A DNA stretch of 50,195 bases, taken from Candidatus Magasanikiibacteriota bacterium (lineage in GTDB: Bacteria > Patescibacteriota > Patescibacteriia > Magasanikbacterales > GWA2-37-8). Below, piece by piece: positions 2,097-45,093 of this stretch. Location of the stretch: contig SICD01000003.1 in the NCBI GenBank assembly GCA_009694865.1, positions 1 through 50,195 on the forward strand, in the 5' to 3' direction. The first letter of the stretch is position 1. Each line of letters starts with the position of its first letter. A program made the position numbers and the translations under genes. Below the pieces are notes generated by a model, which saw nothing but the letters and a program-made list of their open reading frames with translations, was not told the origin of the DNA and did not search any database.

Positions 2097-2231
2097 AAAA
2101 TCCAAATTACAAATTTCAAATCAAATCCAAAATCACAATATCAAAATTTATAATATTGCTTTTCCGCCCAAGGCGGATCCGCCTTTGGCGGAGAGCTTGA
2201 TTTGAAATTTGGAATTTGTTATTTGACATTT
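2097..2231. repeat. Inverted CAAAT-type ~7-mer arrays with a nested double-hairpin element (2163-2192)
   Basis: AAATCCAAATTACAAATTTCAAATCAAATCC... versus TTTGATTTGAAATTTGGAATTTGTTATTTGACATTT; nested TCCGCCCAAGGCGGATCCGCCTTTGGCGGA. Confidence 0.8.
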
Positions 2232-3646: not shown

Positions 3647-3719
3647 GGGCCTGTAACTCAGCGGTTAGAGTGCCACCCTTATAAGGTGGAAGTCGATGGT
3701 TCGATTCCATCCAGGCCCA
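3647..3719 (+). tRNA. tRNA-Ile (anticodon TAT)
   Basis: Cloverleaf: GGGCCTG/CAGGCCC acceptor, ACTC/GAGT D stem, CCACC-CTTATAA-GGTGG anticodon arm (TAT at 3680-3682), GATGG-TTCGATT-CCATC T arm, discriminator A; CCA not encoded. Confidence 0.95.
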
Positions 3720-17704: not shown

Positions 17705-17818
17705 TCCAAAATTCAAATGTCAAATTTCAAATCAAATCCAAAGTTCAAAATTCAAAATTCAAATTTGACATTTGAGTTTTGGGCTTTATTTGACATTTGG
17801 CATTTGTCATTTGATATT
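17705..17818. repeat. Inverted CAAAT-type 7-mer arrays directly upstream of the dsbA start
   Basis: CAAAATTCAAATGTCAAATTTCAAATC... versus TTTGACATTTGGCATTTGTCATTTGATATT. Confidence 0.85.
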
Positions 17819-20115: not shown

Positions 20116-20227
20116 CGTGACCTAGTTTATAAAGTTATCAAGTTATAAAGTTCTCAGATTGATAAATGCCACGAGCCTCGTTCGCACTTTATAAACTTTA
20201 TAACTTTACAAACTTGTAACTATCACG
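20116..20227. repeat. Inverted 8-9-mer AAAGTT/AACTTT arrays
   Basis: AGTTTATAAAGTTATCAAGTTATAAAGTT versus ACTTTATAAACTTTATAACTTTACAAACTTGTAACT; closed by CGTGA/TCACG. Confidence 0.8.
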
Positions 20228-20375: not shown

Positions 20376-20457
20376 GGGCGAGTGGCGGAATTGGTATACG
20401 CGTACGTCTCAGAAGCGTATGGAGCAATCCTTGAGGGTTCGAGTCCCTCTTCGCCCA
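20376..20457 (+). tRNA. tRNA-Leu (anticodon CAG)
   Basis: GGGCGAG/TTCGCCC acceptor, TACGT-CTCAGAA-GCGTA anticodon arm, variable arm GGA-GCAA-TCC, GAGGG-TTCGAGT-CCCTC T arm. Confidence 0.95.
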
Positions 20458-25068: not shown

Positions 25069-25074
25069 ACCCCT

Positions 25075-25564
25075 GTTCATTACAGGTAATCGAGCCGCAA
25101 TTGCGGCTAGGAAAGTCCGAACACCCCCAGTTTTTATTTCGCTACCTACTGGGAAAAGGATAGTGGGCAACACCCACCGTTCCGATGGCAACATCGGAAA
25201 AGGGACAGTGGCACAGAGACAATACTACTGCGCCTCGCCGTAGCTTTAGCGGAGGCGGGAAAACCCCGCCTACGCCAAGGCTTCGGCGAGGCAAAGGAAA
25301 GGTGAAAAGTGTATGGGAGTTGTGGCCCTCGAGACCACAGCTACGATACTCCGCCCTGGAGCAATCCTTGGCGTGTGCTAAACCCTATCTGGTGCAAGAG
25401 CAGCGTCTCTCGGAGTTATTCTGAGATTCGAAAAGTTCGCTCGCTACGCCTTGCCAAAATTTTAGGACGGCGGCAAGGCTGACCCCACGAGCAATCGTGA
25501 GGCTAGATAAATGATTACCATCCCGAATAACTCGGGAAACAAAATTCGGCTTATCGCAATGAAC
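25075..25564 (+). ncRNA. rnpB: RNase P RNA
   Basis: P1 GTTCATT/AATGAAC; AGGAAAGTCCGAAC, AGTGGCACAGA, GGTGAAA, AAACCC..GGTGCAAG, TAGATAAATGAT and ACAAAATTCGGCTTAT conserved blocks in the expected order. Confidence 0.93.
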
Positions 25565-25566
25565 AA

Positions 25567-25594
25567 AAAACACCGCCCGCAAGGGTGGTGTTTT
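25567..25594. terminator. Terminator after rnpB (bidirectional with ribH)
   Basis: AAAACACCGCCC-GCAA-GGGTGGTGTTTT. Confidence 0.85.
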
Positions 25595-26192: not shown

Positions 26193-26212
26193 GTGAAAAA
26201 TAATATAACAAT

Positions 26213-26788
26213 TTAACCATTTGACAATTTAGCAATATACTTCCCCACCACATCAAACTCCAAATTCACCAAATTCCCCACTCGCTTTTCCCCCATCGTC
26301 GTCCCTTTGAGCGTATACGGGATGAACGCCGCCGAAAACCAATTCGTGCCCACATCGACGACAGTCAAACTAATGCCGTCAACCGCAATCGACCCTTTCT
26401 CAACCAGAAATTTACTGTATTGTTTAGGGAAATGAACTCTGAACTCTGAACTCTGAACTCTGAACTTAGTTATCTCCCCCACCGCATCCACATGCCCCTG
26501 CACAATATGCCCATCCAAAAAATCAATTGGCCGAAGCGAACGCTCTAGATTAACTTTTTTTGGAACCTGATGCCCAAACGTCGTCCGCTTAAGCGTCTCT
26601 TCCATCAATTGTGTTTGATAAAAACCCTTCCCAACTTTCGTCACCGTCAAACACACCCCATCCGTCGCCACAGAATCTCCCGGTTTGAGTTTCCATTTTG
26701 CCGGCGTCGCAATTGTCAAAACCAATGAACCATTTTTGTGTTCATACTTTTTGACCACCGCAACTGATTGGATGATACCGGTAAACAT
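26213..26788 (-). CDS. ribE: Riboflavin synthase (alpha chain)
   Basis: MFTGII, GDSVATDGVCLTV, GHIVQGHVD, KGSIAVDGISLTV, VNLEFD. Confidence 0.96.
   Translation of the reverse strand: MFTGIIQSVAVVKKYEHKNGSLVLTIATPAKWKLKPGDSVATDGVCLTVTKVGKGFYQTQLMEETLKRTTFGHQVPKKVNLERSLRPIDFLDGHIVQGHVDAVGEITKFRVQSSEFRVHFPKQYSKFLVEKGSIAVDGISLTVVDVGTNWFSAAFIPYTLKGTTMGEKRVGNLVNLEFDVVGKYIAKLSNG
26433..26467. repeat. (TGAACTC)x4 + TGAACTT heptamer tract inside ribE
   Basis: Read directly; encodes KFRVQSSEFRVH. Confidence 0.9.
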
Positions 26789-27279: not shown

Positions 27280-27510
27280 TTACTCACTGTCCAACAGCGT
27301 TTTAAACTCCTCCTTGCTTATTTGGGCTTGGCGAAGAATACTAAACAAAGTACCGAGCGGCAACGATTTATTGTGGACGGCAATGGTTATTTTTCGTCCA
27401 TCACTGTGTGCTAAACGTACATGACTGCCGGTTTGCCGCGTCACTACAAAACCACAGCGTTCCAATATTTTTATTAGCTCTTTGCCAAAAACTTGTGAAA
27501 AACCACCCAT
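27280..27510 (-). CDS. hicA: HicA-family mRNA interferase toxin
   Basis: ELIKILERCGF...RQTGSHVRL...VH...LPLGTLFSILRQA. Confidence 0.92.
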   Translation of the reverse strand: MGGFSQVFGKELIKILERCGFVVTRQTGSHVRLAHSDGRKITIAVHNKSLPLGTLFSILRQAQISKEEFKTLLDSE

Positions 27511-27513
27511 ACA

Positions 27514-27774
27514 TTAAGAGGTTCCATAACTAACATGGACCGACGTTAACATAGTCCTGTCGTCAGATTCGCTCTCAACAGTTTCCCCTTCGGATACAAG
27601 AGACTTAACATGAAAAGTAATGAGTTTTTTGATATTCTCAAGTGCCTCTTCAATGGTCTCGCCCTCGTCCGCTAGCCCGAGTCCGGGGCACTGTACTGAA
27701 TAACATGGTTCGTTAGTCCCGCTTCTACTGTCCGGCATTACGATGACATTATAGCGCAAATCTTTTACTAACAT
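27514..27774 (-). CDS. hicB: Short HicB-family antitoxin
   Basis: YSVQCPGLG...GETIEEALENIKKLI; upstream of hicA. Confidence 0.88.
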   Translation of the reverse strand: MLVKDLRYNVIVMPDSRSGTNEPCYSVQCPGLGLADEGETIEEALENIKKLITFHVKSLVSEGETVESESDDRTMLTSVHVSYGTS

Positions 27775-27966: not shown

Positions 27967-29394
27967 ATGAAACGTTTCGAACTCATCTTCACCTTTCTCC
28001 AACTCCCCATCGACTACCTCATGCTCCTCCTCGCTGGGGCCTCGGCCTACGCCCTCCGGTTTTCGCCATGGATTGTGGCGATTAGGCCAGTCTCTTTTGC
28101 GGCCAAGCTCTCGTGGGAGCGATATTGGCCCATTGTCGCATTAGTGGCGCTGGGCTGGCTGATTATTTTTGCTTTCTCTGGGTTATACAGTGCCAACCCC
28201 AACCGCAAACTCGCCCGAGATTTGACGCGCGTGGTGATGGCCTGCTGTACCGGTTTTTCCGCCATTACCATTTACGTGTTCTTCACCTTAGGCAAATTTG
28301 ACTCACGCTTTTTAGTGTTAGCCGGTTGGGGGCTCGCCATTATATTCGTCGCCCTGGGGAGAATGCTTTTGCACGGGTGCAAGGCGCTCCTTTACCGGGC
28401 GGGAGTCGGCCTCCGCCGCACCGTCATCATCGGCGGTGGCTCAATCGCCAACACCATCCAAAATACTTTTGCCTCACAGCGTCGATTAGGTTTTAACGTG
28501 GTAGAAACCTTCCCCCGCTTTTCCCGCACCAACGCGTCGGCCATGTTAAAATTAAAACCGGATGAAATAATTTTTACCGATCCCAAAGGCAACGAAACCG
28601 AAACCCTGGCCGCCATTGATTGGGCCAATATCCACCACATCACCTTTAAATACTCCGCCGATTTATTCGCCACCGTGTCGAGCAACATGATGGTCTCCAC
28701 CGTCGCGGGCATCCCCATTATCGAACTGCGCCGCACCCGCCTCACCGGCTGGGGTCGCATCACCAAACGCCTGTTCGACATCATCGGTGGACTGATACTT
28801 TTTACCATCTCCACTCCCCTATATTTAATTACCATCCTGATTATTTATATTGAAACCGGCCGCCCGGCCATTTACAAAAATGAACGCGTAGGGCAATACG
28901 GACACAAATTTTTCACTTTCAAATTTAGAACCATGTATCAAAAATTTTCCACCGGGCCACAATTTGGTCGCAGTGGCCAAGCGGCTTTAAAAACCGAAGC
29001 CAAACTCATTAAAACCCAAAACAGCAAATCCGGGCCAATTTATAAAATTAAAGATGACCCCAGAATCACTCCCGTAGGCCGCTGGCTCCGCAAATGGAGT
29101 TTGGACGAACTCCCACAGTTTTGGAATGTAATAAAAGGTGACATGAGCCTAGTTGGCCCCCGCCCCCATCAGCCGCGCGAAGTAGCCGGATACGAAAACG
29201 AGCACCAAGTTGTTTTTACCATCAAGCCAGGGCTAACCGGCCTCCCCCAAATTTCCGGCCGCAGTAATCTCACCTTTGAAGAAGAAATAAAGCTGGACGC
29301 GTTTTATATTGAAAATTGGAACGTGTATCTAGATTTCATAATTCTGGTTAAGACACCGTTTGTGGTCTTAAGAAAAACTGGCAGCATTGTGTGA
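27967..29394 (+). CDS. Polyprenyl glycosylphosphotransferase (sugar transferase, WcaJ/WbaP-like)
   Basis: [54 protein letters not shown]. Confidence 0.95.
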
Positions 29395-29424
29395 CACGAC
29401 AACACGACAACACATCAACACGCG
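29393..29424 (+). repeat. Left 8-mer array (AACACNNN x4)
   Basis: GACACGAC AACACGAC AACACATC AACACGCG. Confidence 0.9.
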
Positions 29425-29441
29425 AAAAATTGAAAAGGAGT

Positions 29442-29798
29442 ATGACTAAATTTCAGGATGAGCTAAAGAAAAAGATGCACCAGTACGTCAAATTGGTTTA
29501 TCACTGCACCAAAACTTTCCCCCGCGACGAGCTTTACGGTGTTACCAGCCAATTCCGACGCGCGACTCTATCGGTTATACTCAATTACATTGAAGGCTAC
29601 GCGCGTTTTAAATTGGGAACAAAATTGCAATTTTACGAAACGTCATACGGGTCGTTAAAGGAATCAAAATATTTGGTATATTTCAGTTGGACAGAAAAAT
29701 ATATTACCGAACTAAACTATAAAGAACTTGTATCGCTCGCGGACGAAATCGGTAGAATGTTATGGTCAGAAATAGAATTATTGCAAAATCAAAAATAA
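29442..29798 (+). CDS. Four-helix-bundle protein (23S rRNA-IVP / Avd-like family)
   Basis: TKTFPRDELYGVTSQFRRATLSVILNYIEGYAR...SYGSLKES signature; AAGGAG SD before ATG 29442. Confidence 0.9.
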   Translation: MTKFQDELKKKMHQYVKLVYHCTKTFPRDELYGVTSQFRRATLSVILNYIEGYARFKLGTKLQFYETSYGSLKESKYLVYFSWTEKYITELNYKELVSLADEIGRMLWSEIELLQNQK

Positions 29799-29813
29799 TA
29801 TTGTCACAATACT

Positions 29814-29853
29814 CACGTGTTGCAGTGTTGATGTGTTAAAGTGTTGAAGTGAT
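29814..29853 (+). repeat. Right 8-mer array (NNNGTGTT), inverted relative to the left array
   Basis: CACGTGTT GCAGTGTT GATGTGTT AAAGTGTT GAAGTGAT. Confidence 0.9.
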
Positions 29854-30975
29854 ATGCGATTAGCATTAGTACACGACTACCTCGCCCAAGACGGTGGCGC
29901 CGAACGCGTCCTTAAAGCCATTCACGAACTGTGGCCCGAAGCCCCAATTTTTTTATTATTTCACGATCGCCATAAAATGCCCCACTTCGTCGCGGCCGAC
30001 ATTCGCGAATCATTTCTGGCTAAACTACCGGGCGGGCGAAGCCACTATCAATGGTTCTTACCGTGGATGCCACTCGCGACCGAGCGCCTCAACCTGAGTG
30101 ATTTTGATGTGGTGCTTTCCGCCTCCAGCCTATTTGCCAAAGGTGTTATTACCCACCCTGGGACTCTCCATATTTCGTATTGCCATACCCCGCCGCGCTT
30201 TTTGTGGGGCGGAACGCACGAATACGTGGATGAGCTTAACTATGGCCGTTTAGTAAAAACTTTTTTGCCTCCCATTATTCACCGTCTGCGGCTCTGGGAT
30301 AAAATGAGCGCGGATCGTGTTGATCATTTTATTGCCAATTCTAAAACCGTCCAAAGCCGCATTGCCAAATACTACCGGCGCGACAGCCACCTCTTGTACC
30401 CGCCCACGGACACTGCTAGTTTTACTCCCAGTTTAGATATTGGTAACTATTTTGTCGCCGGTGGCCGGCTCGTGCCCTACAAACGCCTGGACCTGGTGGT
30501 GCGGGCATTTAATCGTTTGGGTCACCCCTTAAAAATTTTTGGCACCGGCCAGGAGCTAGATCAATTGCGCGCTATGGCCAAACCCCATATTGAATTTTTG
30601 GGTAGGATTACCGACGAAGATAAAGCTAAACTACTGGCCGGAGCCATGGCGTTTATCCACCCCCAACTGGAGGATTTTGGCATTACCCCCATTGAAAGTA
30701 TGGCCGCCGGCCGACCCGTTATTGCTTATGGCGAAGGCGGCGCTACCGAAACCGTCATTCCGGGAGAGACCGGCGTGCTCTTTCCCAAACAGTCGTGGGA
30801 ATCACTTTTAGACGCCGTAGTGCATTTTGAAGAAACCGCCTGGGACCAGAATAAAATCCGCGCCCACGCGGAAAAATTTGATGTGACTCATTTTAAAAAC
30901 CGCCTCGGGCAATTCGTGAACGACCGATACGAAGAATTTAAAACCGGCCTTCGTCAGCCGGCGTTGATACGATAA
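29854..30975 (+). CDS. GT4-family glycosyltransferase
   Basis: LVHDYLAQDGGAERV, GRLVPYKR, EDFGITPIESMAAGRPVIA. Confidence 0.95.
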   Translation: MRLALVHDYLAQDGGAERVLKAIHELWPEAPIFLLFHDRHKMPHFVAADIRESFLAKLPGGRSHYQWFLPWMPLATERLNLSDFDVVLSASSLFAKGVITHPGTLHISYCHTPPRFLWGGTHEYVDELNYGRLVKTFLPPIIHRLRLWDKMSADRVDHFIANSKTVQSRIAKYYRRDSHLLYPPTDTASFTPSLDIGNYFVAGGRLVPYKRLDLVVRAFNRLGHPLKIFGTGQELDQLRAMAKPHIEFLGRITDEDKAKLLAGAMAFIHPQLEDFGITPIESMAAGRPVIAYGEGGATETVIPGETGVLFPKQSWESLLDAVVHFEETAWDQNKIRAHAEKFDVTHFKNRLGQFVNDRYEEFKTGLRQPALIR

Positions 30976-43026: not shown

Positions 43027-43136
43027 AAATGCCAAAATCCCAATGACAAATGTCAAATCAAGCTCAAAATCCAAAAACGTGTCGTCAATTTGAACTTTGA
43101 CATTGATTTGGCATTTGAAATTTGTTATTTGAAATT
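43027..43136. repeat. Inverted CAAAT-type 7-mer arrays after the pilB stop
   Basis: CCAATGACAAATGTCAAATCAA versus TTGATTTGGCATTTGAAATTTGTTATTTGAAATT. Confidence 0.85.
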
Positions 43137-44964: not shown

Positions 44965-45093
44965 AAATCCTAAATTCGAATATCGAAATCCGAAACAAAT
45001 TTCAAATGTCAAATCAAATTCAAAACCCCAAACCCAAATTTGCCATTTAGACTTTGGATTTGATTTGACATTTGTTATTTGGATTTTGAAATT
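44965..45093. repeat. Inverted 7-mer arrays upstream of pilB
   Basis: AAATCCTAAATTCGAATATCGAAATCCGAAACAAATTTCAAATGTCAAATCAAAT versus ATTTGATTTGACATTTGTTATTTGGATTT. Confidence 0.85.

What the first reader, a model, noticed from the sequence alone, without database searches (positions are those of the whole stretch)
29391..29853. Four-helix-bundle gene packaged in inverted 8-mer arrays, inserted exactly at a stop/start junction: candidate new cassette-type element
Seen: the left array AACACNNN x4 begins at the TGA of the sugar-transferase gene. The right array NNNGTGTT x4-5 is its reverse complement (e.g. AACACATC/GATGTGTT) and ends at the ATG of the GT4 gene. GTGA occurs at both ends (29391-29394 and 29849-29852), so deleting the unit restores a tight ...GTGA-T-ATG junction. 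The passenger has its own AAGGAG SD. Known: this protein family occurs in 23S rRNA intervening sequences, where it sits in an excised stem-loop, and is related to the DGR accessory protein Avd. Inference: the arrays form a long stem that loops out the gene in mRNA or ssDNA. That would make it an IVS-like or mobile cassette in a protein-coding operon, with no transposase in the window.
Basis: partly seen in the sequence, partly recalled or inferred. Interest (0 to 1): 0.85.

Follow-up and report, generated by a model that had tools for sequence, protein, structure and literature searches.

The report
Selfish gene cassette boxed by word-repeats
A small gene, of the kind known from insertions in ribosomal RNA genes, sits here between two sugar-transferase genes, boxed by mirror-image runs of a repeated short DNA word; the same packaging surrounds nearly every relative of this gene examined, which points to an undescribed family of mobile cassettes.

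Summary
Window 29394-29425 (ACACNNNA x4) and 29813-29851 (GTGTTNNN x4-5) are inverted 8-nt arrays. They box a 118-aa PF05635 four-helix-bundle gene (29442-29798) between the stop of a Bac_transf gene and the ATG of a GT4 gene.

It is an insertion. In 19 of 29 relatives' loci the two host genes abut. The same junction elsewhere holds a different cassette (PDDEXK_3, same genus), a decayed PF05635 cassette (another family) and gene-less array hairpins.

The packaging is general. Flanking inverted arrays occur at 63 of 66 PF05635 loci in 26 related genomes (controls 2 of 388) and at 68 of 77 loci from named, mostly Patescibacteria, records (controls 12 of 438).

Array words travel with the protein lineage to unrelated loci. 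They stay conserved where four-fold codon sites are saturated. The window's subfamily uses AACAY words at 7-8 nt spacing.

The genome also holds about 26 gene-less array hairpins, some sharing words with resident cassettes.

The closest known thing is the Coxiella 23S rRNA intervening sequence, which has the same protein family, a 28-bp stem of heptamer repeats and proven RNase III cutting.

Not shown here: RNA cleavage, protein-array binding, or the enzyme of mobility. No wobble-pair bias and no target duplication were found.

The parts
27967..29394 (+). Upstream host gene: polyprenyl-phosphate sugar transferase (Bac_transf + CoA_binding_3), 475 aa. Its TGA stop is at 29392-29394.
   Evidence: ORF list. 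Pfam PF02397 E 2e-59. Orthologues lie directly upstream of the GT4 gene in relatives.
29394..29425 (+). Left word array: four 8-nt units ACACGACA / ACACGACA / ACACATCA / ACACGCGA (core AACAC, variable 3-nt spacer).
   Evidence: the repeat finder family D2 and inverted pairs I1-I4. Pattern test 5 hits against 0.02 expected. TRF period 8, 3.6 copies.
29435..29440 (+). AAGGAG, a Shine-Dalgarno-like hexamer only 1 nt upstream of the ATG.
   Evidence: Read from the sequence. The spacing is shorter than usual, so its function is uncertain.
29442..29798 (+). Passenger gene: 118-aa four-helix-bundle protein of family PF05635 (23S rRNA IVS protein / S23p; Avd-like), basic (pI 9.06).
   Evidence: Pfam E 2.5e-24, and bAvd E 3.9e-9 below its cut-off. 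AlphaFold model pLDDT 97.8 with four helices. Foldseek best hit 2gsc, TM 0.90, then 2rld, 4dwl, 8ub7. pI.
29813..29851 (+). Right word array: reverse complement of the left words (GTGTTGCA / GTGTTGAT / GTGTTAAA / GTGTTGAA / GTGA-), ending 2 nt before the GT4 start.
   Evidence: the repeat finder family D1 and inverted pairs I1-I4. TRF period 8, 4.4 copies. RNA duplex with the left arm -36.8 kcal/mol, 0 of 500 shuffles as stable.
29854..30975 (+). Downstream host gene: GT4-type glycosyltransferase, 373 aa. No Shine-Dalgarno-like motif is visible between the array and the ATG.
   Evidence: ORF list. Pfam Glycos_transf_1 E 2.6e-25. An orthologue was found in 60 of 60 relatives.

Best explanation
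The segment from about 29394 to 29851 is one discrete selfish cassette that was inserted into a formerly tight stop/start junction of a glycosylation operon.

What it consists of. It is a PF05635 gene between two arms. Each arm is a tandem array of about four copies of a 7-9-nt word, and the arms are in inverted orientation.

Shown here:
- It belongs to a large class with exactly this anatomy.
- Gene and arrays move together as a unit to unrelated intergenic junctions and between genomes.
- The array sequence, not only its pairing, is conserved within each protein lineage. The window's lineage uses AACAY.
- The class leaves gene-less array hairpins as internal-deletion derivatives.

Inferred:
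- The arrays are cis sites read by the cassette's own basic protein. Solved relatives of this protein are pentameric rings, and an arm has about four words.
- In the operon transcript the arms pair into a stem of about 26 bp that RNase III cuts, as in 23S rRNA intervening sequences. That would release the passenger mRNA and make the insertion tolerable.

The enzyme that moves the DNA is unknown.
For: Insertion.
- The host genes abut in 19 of 29 relatives' loci.
- The same junction holds a PDDEXK_3 cassette in the same-genus genome G001.
- It holds a PF05635 pseudogene cassette in G042.
- 7 of 8 enlarged junctions hold significant inverted repeats, 5 of them periodic.

Generality.
- All 7 PF05635 genes of this genome are boxed by inverted arrays of different words.
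- 63 of 66 loci in 26 genomes score IR >= 22, against 2 of 388 shifted controls.
- 68 of 77 loci from named records do so, against 12 of 438 controls.
- 226 of 286 flanks have an array: period 7 (144), 8 (68) or 9 (12), median 4.0 copies and 30 nt.

Movement as a unit.
- Pairs with 50-70% amino-acid identity have similar arrays in 27% of 96 pairs, and all 3 pairs above 70% do. Below 35% identity the figure is 0-1%. Their flanks are unrelated in all but one of the 30 most array-similar pairs.
- PF05635 is patchy: 26 of 61 genomes carry it, with 0-7 copies.

Sequence-specific constraint.
- In 65 pairs with at least 55% amino-acid identity at non-homologous loci, four-fold sites are 0.34-0.39 identical (baseline 0.33). 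The arms are 0.65-0.81 identical (baseline 0.37-0.40).
- In the window's subfamily AACAT occurs 1.04 times per locus on the left and 1.19 on the right (reverse complement), against 0.10 in controls. Word spacing is 7 (85 cases) or 8 (94 cases).

Derivatives.
- 225 arrays in 987 kb, against 9 rows in a shuffled genome.
- 26 inverted pairs have loops of 6-153 nt and 6 have loops of 381-399 nt.
- The solo hairpin at C35:13231-13300 uses the window's words. Solos at C16 and L044 share inner sequence with full cassettes.

Co-occurrence. Arrays with an inverted partner per 100 kb number 0, 0, 2, 0 in four genomes without the genes, and 11, 6, 0, 7 in four genomes with them.

RNA route.
- Arm duplex -36.8 kcal/mol.
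- The passenger is co-oriented with its neighbours in 57 of 61 and 56 of 58 cases, against a baseline of 0.76.
- An RNase III gene is present.
- The Coxiella IVS has the same anatomy and a proven RNase III cut (PMC4990558).

Protein.
- Fold matches pentameric 2gsc and 2rld, and Avd.
- Avd binds a defined RNA element (bioRxiv 10.1101/2023.10.23.563531, passages).
- Median pI 9.3.
Against: - No strand-specific wobble signal. Mismatches in aligned arms are 79 sense-strand G.U against 99 A.C, with 214 transversions and 2514 matches. Selection on an RNA stem is therefore not visible.
- No target-site duplication: k=3, 1 observed against 3.1 expected; k=4, 2 against 0.7.
- No catalytic activity is known for PF05635, and no transposase lies in the cassette.
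- PDDEXK_3 cassettes have the same packaging (23 of 25). The Coxiella heptamer GACAGAT looks like PDDEXK_3-type words. A simple one-family-one-word rule therefore fails.
- Linkage alone can explain the covariation of word and protein. Only the excess conservation argues for recognition.
- One PF05635-positive genome (G027) had no paired arrays in the 100 kb sampled. G+C content partly confounds that comparison.
- 3 of 66 and 9 of 77 loci lack the repeat.
- AAGGAG lies 1 nt from the ATG.
Confidence: 0.6

Rival explanations
1. Purely RNA-level intervening sequence. The arms matter only as a stem that RNase III cuts. The words and the protein play no part in recognition. The element spreads only by ordinary recombination of flanking DNA.
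For: The arm duplex is stable and the whole fold pairs the arms. Stems are stable in most cassettes: median -32.5 kcal/mol, and z < -3 in 44 of 66. RNase III is present. There is a Coxiella precedent, in which the ORF even seems unexpressed (PMC4990558). A left arm's own right arm is its best partner in 20 of 77 elements.
Against: Arm sequence is conserved far beyond what pairing needs, while four-fold sites are saturated. There is no G.U over A.C bias. Cassettes with the same words sit at unrelated loci, which flank recombination cannot produce. Word spacing is fixed at 7-8 nt.
Confidence: 0.15
2. Ordinary terminal-inverted-repeat transposon remnants (MITE-like), moved in trans by a conventional transposase elsewhere in the genome. 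The small gene is mere cargo.
For: Inverted ends, gene-less derivatives and many copies. The genome has one rve and one DDE_Tnp_1 gene.
Against: There are many different word families per genome but only two transposase hits. The DDE gene has its own, unrelated inverted repeats. No Y1 transposase was found. No target duplication was found. The words follow the lineage of the 'cargo' protein across distant hosts. Arrays of 7-9-nt words are not typical transposase ends (recalled).
Confidence: 0.1
3. A host-useful gene, for example a defence or stress gene, with operator repeats. The arrays are binding sites for autoregulation by DNA looping or by blocking translation, not ends of a mobile element.
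For: The left array lies directly upstream of the ATG. The words are lineage-specific and conserved. The protein is basic and of a nucleic-acid-binding family.
Against: This does not explain the gene-less hairpins, the patchy presence, pseudogenes at the same site, the different passengers at one junction, or why the arms abut the neighbours' stop and start. It can, however, coexist with mobility.
Confidence: 0.1
4. Chance low-complexity sequence or an assembly artefact.
For: None beyond the AT-rich, repetitive look of many arrays.
Against: Pattern test: 5 hits against 0.02 expected. Controls. Independent contigs of two runs span the cassette unchanged. The same anatomy occurs in dozens of independent assemblies.
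Confidence: 0.01

Closest known systems
23S rRNA intervening sequence (IVS) with an S23p ORF, as in Coxiella burnetii helix 45 (PMC4990558; Leptospira IVS is cited there)
   Same: Same protein family (PF05635) as passenger and about the same size (428 nt against about 460 nt). [quoted passage not shown] Tandem heptamers (GACAGAT x3-4) lie in the arm just upstream of the ATG. It is regarded as a selfish element of unknown mobility.
   Different: This one lies between two protein-coding genes, not in rRNA. RNase III cutting is proven there and untested here. The literature seen treats the heptamers as a strain-variable detail, not as a lineage-specific hallmark. Gene-less derivatives and other passengers are not described there.
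REPIN-RAYT systems (recalled, not read here)
   Same: System logic. Dispersed intergenic hairpin repeats occur in families. The gene of the presumed trans-acting protein is itself flanked by its cognate repeats in inverted orientation. The repeats sit at gene ends.
   Different: RAYT is an HUH Y1 transposase, and none was found in this genome. Here the protein is a four-helix bundle or a small PD-(D/E)XK protein, the repeats are tandem word arrays, and the genes are multi-copy and patchy.
Avd, the accessory protein of diversity-generating retroelements
   Same: Same fold (Foldseek 4dwl and 8ub7, TM about 0.8). Basic pentameric barrel. It binds a defined RNA element.
   Different: There is no adjacent reverse transcriptase or template/variable repeat. 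The only RVT_1 hit is weak and on another contig. The bAvd Pfam score is below its cut-off.
MITEs and subterminal-repeat DNA transposons
   Same: Inverted ends made of repeated short motifs, and internal-deletion derivatives that outnumber the full copies.
   Different: No transposase gene and no target-site duplication. The period of 7-9 nt is much shorter than typical transposase sites (recalled).
Integron gene cassettes
   Same: A single promoterless ORF plus a structured, sequence-variable recombination-like site, inserted co-directionally in an expressed array.
   Different: Integron cassettes carry one attC at the 3' end and insert at attI beside an integrase. Here two arms flank the ORF and the sites are scattered. 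No integrase search was made.

Membership tests
PF05635 / 23S_rRNA_IVP (S23p) protein family | Score above Pfam's gathering cut-off | tested here: met
   86 bits against a cut-off of 33.8, E 2.5e-24.
PF05635 / 23S_rRNA_IVP (S23p) protein family | Four-helix-bundle fold like 2gsc and 2rld | tested here: met
   Model pLDDT 97.8 with helices 3-23, 28-53, 58-84, 90-117. TM 0.90 to 2gsc.
PF05635 / 23S_rRNA_IVP (S23p) protein family | Homopentameric ring | not tested
   2gsc and 2rld have five chains each, and the pentamer is stated in PMC4990558. No oligomer prediction was run, because the tool takes at most 4 copies.
rRNA intervening sequence (IVS) | Lies inside an rRNA gene helix | tested here: not met
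   It lies between two protein genes. Rfam finds only RNase P RNA and two tRNAs in the window.
rRNA intervening sequence (IVS) | Bordered by complementary ends that form a long stem | tested here: met
   (-36.8 kcal/mol, 0 of 500 shuffles as stable).
rRNA intervening sequence (IVS) | Excised from the transcript by RNase III | not testable with these tools
   An RNase III gene is present at C25:21727-22119. No RNA run holds the locus.
TIR transposon / MITE | Terminal inverted repeats | tested here: met
TIR transposon / MITE | Target-site duplication | tested here: not met
   In 131 elements: k=3, 1 observed against 3.1 expected; k=4, 2 against 0.7. The repeat ends are fuzzy, so a 2-nt duplication (21 against 11.8) cannot be excluded.
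TIR transposon / MITE | Cognate transposase, in the element or in trans | tested here: inconclusive
   There is none in the cassette. The genome has one rve and one DDE_Tnp_1 hit and no Y1_Tnp. Other transposase families were not searched.
DGR accessory protein (Avd) | Adjacent reverse transcriptase and template/variable repeats | tested here: not met
   The only RVT_1 hit is on contig C53, at 36 bits. The bAvd score of 37.4 is below its cut-off of 40.
REPIN-RAYT | Y1 HUH transposase (RAYT) flanked by its repeats | tested here: not met
   No PF01797 match in the genome, which is 94.7% complete.

The most novel reading that the evidence does not exclude
PF05635 rings, and in parallel the small PDDEXK_3 proteins, are the sequence-specific trans-acting factors of an unrecognised class of transposase-less mobile cassettes. 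Each subunit reads one 7-9-nt word of an array. Full cassettes mobilise or maintain swarms of gene-less array hairpins that pervade small Patescibacteria genomes, in the manner of REPIN-RAYT systems. On this reading, the classical 23S rRNA intervening sequences are simply the members that landed in rRNA.
Probability: 0.35. Interest if true: 0.9.

Novelty: new variant of a known kind. Interest (0 to 1): 0.8.

Why it matters
rRNA intervening sequences and their S23p proteins have lacked a function or a mobility mechanism for some 30 years. This locus and its relatives show that the same unit lives mainly outside rRNA.

They also give it a defining anatomy: inverted arrays of lineage-specific words, about four per arm, at 7-9 nt. 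And they suggest a concrete partner for the protein, namely its own arrays.

That turns an open question into simple binding, cleavage and mobility assays.

It would also explain a large share of the intergenic repeats in ultra-small genomes (225 arrays in 987 kb here). That matters for annotation, for operon-expression models and for understanding the origin of Avd in diversity-generating retroelements.

Tried and rejected
- RNA evidence: no RNA holder is listed for the locus.
- Population variants: contigs of two DNA runs span 28900-30265/30400 with no difference and no joint. A third run covers only 30206-30400. No empty allele was seen. One of these runs may be the source of the window.
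- Wobble test for an RNA stem: no bias.
- Target duplication: none. I rejected GTGA as a general signature.
- Rfam: no family at the locus.
- Wider taxa: alignments A1 (22 sequences) and A2 (8 sequences) were too diverse for the search for related loci. The 3-sequence alignment A3 worked but reaches only the window's own subfamily. Bacteroidota, cyanobacterial and Leptospira members were therefore not examined.
- Literature searches found no description of PF05635 cassettes between protein genes, of inverted word arrays as their hallmark, or of such hairpins in Patescibacteria. Only listings and the passages named were read. Supplements are closed and may hold relevant tables, for example in PMC11270868. 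Most subscription papers are not held.
- The papers PMC47033, PMC196815 and PMC176976 are not held. What I say about Leptospira comes from PMC4990558.
- I considered terminators for the gene-less hairpins and rejected the idea. 4 of 26 lie between divergent genes and 16 between co-directional genes, and I saw no T-run requirement (T-runs were judged by eye only).
- The gene calls are my own crude ORF calls. The figure '96 arrays inside ORFs' is unreliable for that reason.
- Rows dropped. From the 70 PF05635 matches I left out 4: G055:C68:24935, G055:C29:3 and G026:C3:234 (at contig ends or on a 602-nt contig) and the 46-residue fragment G021:C50:15458. From the 80 loci I left out 3 with no downstream flank (L149, L157, L218).
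Full report
**The observation.**
The sequence is as described.
- The left array, 29394-29425, has four 8-nt units (ACACGACA, ACACGACA, ACACATCA, ACACGCGA). It starts on the last base of the TGA of the upstream gene.
- The right array, 29817-29851 (inverted arm from 29813), carries the complementary GTGTT words at period 8. It ends 2 nt before the ATG at 29854.
- A three-word pattern with at most one mismatch hits 5 times in 50 kb, all within the two arrays. 0.02 hits were expected.
- The ORF 29442-29798 is PF05635 (E 2.5e-24). The neighbours are a Bac_transf sugar transferase and a GT4-type glycosyltransferase.
- The arms make an RNA duplex of -36.8 kcal/mol, against -12.9 +/- 3.8 for shuffled arms (0 of 500). 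The 486-nt fold pairs them (z = -3.0).
- Two details need correction. AAGGAG is only 1 nt from the ATG. The GTGA at both ends, though present, is not a general signature.

**It is an insertion, and the junction is reused.**
The GT4 orthologue was found in 60 of 60 relatives. In the 29 loci fetched, the transferase gene lies directly upstream.
- In 19 loci, stop and start are within about 20 nt or overlap.
- In 7 loci the spacer is 80-140 nt and holds a significant inverted repeat, periodic in 5 (L033, L036, L044, L047, L050).
- L038 has a 75-nt spacer without a repeat. L035 has a 1.3-kb insert with a large ORF.
- In the same-genus genome G001 the junction holds a different passenger, a PDDEXK_3 gene (E 5.7e-20) boxed by inverted CCGAAT-type arrays.
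- In G042, of another family, it holds a PF05635 gene with an in-frame TAA, boxed by AAGTAAC-type arrays that run from the TAG of the transferase to 5 nt before the GT4 ATG.

**The packaging is the rule for this gene family.**
- The window's genome (987 kb, 55 contigs, 46.5% G+C) has 7 PF05635 genes. All are flanked by inverted periodic arrays, each with different words.
- I scored the 110 nt upstream against the reverse complement of the 110 nt downstream. 63 of 66 loci from 26 genomes reach 22 or more (median 35.5). Same-geometry windows shifted within the same loci do so in 2 of 388 cases. Four of the 70 matches were left out, as listed under Tried and rejected.
- For the window's own protein subfamily, 80 loci came from named records. 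Most are Patescibacteria of many classes. A few are labelled Gammaproteobacteria, Bdellovibrionales, Ignavibacteriota, Aminicenantia or Dehalococcoidales. 68 of 77 testable loci reach the threshold, against 12 of 438 controls.
- TRF finds an array in 226 of 286 flanks: period 7 (144), 8 (68), 9 (12); median 4.0 copies and 30 nt.
- The passenger is co-oriented with the upstream ORF in 57 of 61 cases and with the downstream ORF in 56 of 58. The baseline for adjacent ORFs in this genome is 0.76. The arms mostly lie within a few nt of the neighbours' stop and start.

**Gene and arrays are one unit that moves.**
- PF05635 is patchy: 26 of 61 genomes, 0-7 copies.
- Among 1953 pairs of elements, array similarity rises with protein identity. 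Similar arrays occur in 0-1% of pairs below 35% identity, 27% of 96 pairs at 50-70%, and 3 of 3 above 70%.
- Of the 30 most array-similar pairs, all but one have unrelated flanks.
- The arrays are conserved as sequence. In 65 pairs with at least 55% amino-acid identity at non-homologous loci, four-fold sites are at saturation (0.34-0.39; unrelated pairs 0.33). The arms are 0.65-0.81 identical (unrelated pairs 0.37-0.40).
- In the window's subfamily the words are AACAT/AACAC on the coding strand upstream and their complement downstream. They are about ten-fold enriched and spaced 7 (85 cases) or 8 nt (94 cases).
- Within an element the two arms match each other better than arms of other elements of the same subfamily do (median 32 against 16). 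An element's own right arm is the best partner in 20 of 77.

**Gene-less copies.**
- TRF finds 225 arrays of period 6-10 in the genome, against 9 rows in a block-shuffled copy.
- 32 inverted pairs have both arms called. Their loops are either 6-153 nt (26 pairs) or 381-399 nt (6 pairs: five PF05635 cassettes and one PDDEXK_3 cassette).
- The hairpin at C35:13231-13300 uses the window's CACATCAA / GTGTTGCA words. The one at C16:658-763 shares words and inner sequence with the cassette on C37.
- The hairpin at the G035 junction (L044) shares words and the start-codon region with that genome's full cassette. These look like internal-deletion derivatives.
- In 100-kb samples, four genomes without PF05635 or PDDEXK_3 had 0, 0, 2 and 0 arrays with an inverted partner. 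Four genomes with PF05635 had 11, 6, 0 and 7. The window's genome has 9.2 per 100 kb. The sample is small, the genomes are related and G+C content partly confounds the comparison.
- PDDEXK_3 genes are packaged the same way: 23 of 25 loci, controls 1 of 135, with words such as ACGGATT, ACAGATT, ACGAAT.
- Small GIY-YIG and DUF559 genes in this genome are boxed by other, non-periodic inverted repeats.

**The protein.**
- The model is a confident four-helix bundle (pLDDT 97.8).
- Its best structural matches are the five-chain entries 2gsc (TM 0.90) and 2rld, then Avd (4dwl) and the DGR ribonucleoprotein 8ub7. The only sequence match in the PDB is 2gsc.
- Passages of PMC4990558 state that the Xanthomonas homologue is a homopentameric toroid.
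- Passages of bioRxiv 10.1101/2023.10.23.563531 state that Avd is a positively charged pentameric barrel that contacts a defined 'Avd-binding RNA'.
- The cassette proteins are basic (median pI 9.3; window 9.06).
- Q37, S44, N48, E51 and E74 are invariant in 22 diverse members.

**How it most likely works.**
Shown: the element is a discrete, reusable insertion; gene and arrays are linked and move together; the words are conserved by lineage; derivatives exist; the potential stem is stable.

Inferred: a factor that differs between cassette lineages must read the words, and the only lineage-specific product is the passenger protein. An arm has about four words and solved homologues are pentamers, so one ring per arm is a natural model.

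By analogy, the arms pair in the transcript and are cut by RNase III, whose gene is present. In the Coxiella IVS a 28-bp stem is cut by RNase III in vitro, with ends mapped by RACE, and three to four tandem heptamers lie just upstream of the ATG.

Against the RNA part: arm mismatches show no G.U excess (79 against 99 A.C). Against a classical transposon: there is no target duplication and no Y1 transposase, with only single rve and DDE hits elsewhere. The only RVT_1 hit is weak and remote. The catalyst of DNA movement is unknown.

**Comparison and novelty.**
The closest known object is the S23p-bearing 23S rRNA IVS. This element fails the defining feature of lying in rRNA, but otherwise matches its anatomy. 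The CPR rRNA-insertion survey (PMC11270868, passages) records 23S_rRNA_IVP ORFs inside rRNA insertions, not between protein genes.

In system logic it resembles REPIN-RAYT (recalled), but without the HUH transposase. My searches found no description of the intergenic cassettes, the word arrays as a hallmark, or the hairpin swarms. The library is partial and supplements were closed.

I file it as a new variant of a known kind. There is a real chance, about one in three, that it represents a new class of mobile element whose specificity factor is the four-helix-bundle ring.

That the genome is a Patescibacteria (CPR) member is my inference. It rests on its size and on the named records that carry the closest cassette proteins. 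No tool named the organism.

Noticed in passing
window 2097-2231, 17709-17818, 20127-20215, 44965-45024 (also single arrays at 1180-1252, 26202-26236, 26433-26466, 43087-43136): Further short tandem word arrays of period 7-9 in the same window. Four are close inverted pairs (gene-less hairpins, loops 22-52 nt or adjacent). 1180-1252 is GGGTTAC x10.4 with no partner found.
   Followed up: partly
G000 contigs C29:4983-5502, C23:9092-9473, C48:18573-18953; C36:7146-7834, C5:9870-10367: Small GIY-YIG genes (96-119 aa) and DUF559 genes are also boxed by inverted repeats. These repeats are non-periodic: a TGTCATTCTGAGCG...GAAGAATC type, and G/C-rich CCCTCTCC types. The first type also flanks ordinary genes (YidD, DUF2304, RuvA), so it is a dispersed REP-like repeat.
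   Followed up: partly
G000 C50:13681-14147, C55:8853-9340, C25:30326-30646; 22 further loci in relatives: PDDEXK_3 (GxxExxY-type) genes are packaged in inverted word arrays just like PF05635 genes (23 of 25 loci). Many of their words share an ACRRAT core, which resembles the Coxiella IVS heptamer GACAGAT.
   Followed up: partly
window 29854 and the starts of genes downstream of other cassettes: The right arm usually ends 0-15 nt before the next gene's ATG, and by eye no Shine-Dalgarno motif fits in between. In empty junctions an AGGAG-like motif lies in the last codons of the transferase gene. How the downstream gene is translated after the insertion is unexplained; a near-leaderless mRNA after stem cleavage is one idea.
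   Followed up: no
window 27280-27774, minus strand: Two small overlapping ORFs (76 and 86 aa) just upstream of the transferase gene look by eye like a HicA/HicB-type toxin-antitoxin pair. This is recalled resemblance; no search was run.
   Followed up: no
window 25074-25569; 3647-3719; 20376-20457: RNase P RNA class A (124 bits) and two tRNA genes.
   Followed up: no
L035 (G016), 1.3 kb between the transferase and GT4 genes: In one relative the same junction holds a 1335-nt insert with a long ORF. I saw no flanking arrays and did not identify it.
   Followed up: no
G000 C54:23435-24460: A 20-nt perfect inverted repeat encloses the genome's only DDE_Tnp_1 hit. It looks like an ordinary insertion sequence, unrelated to the word arrays.
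   Followed up: no
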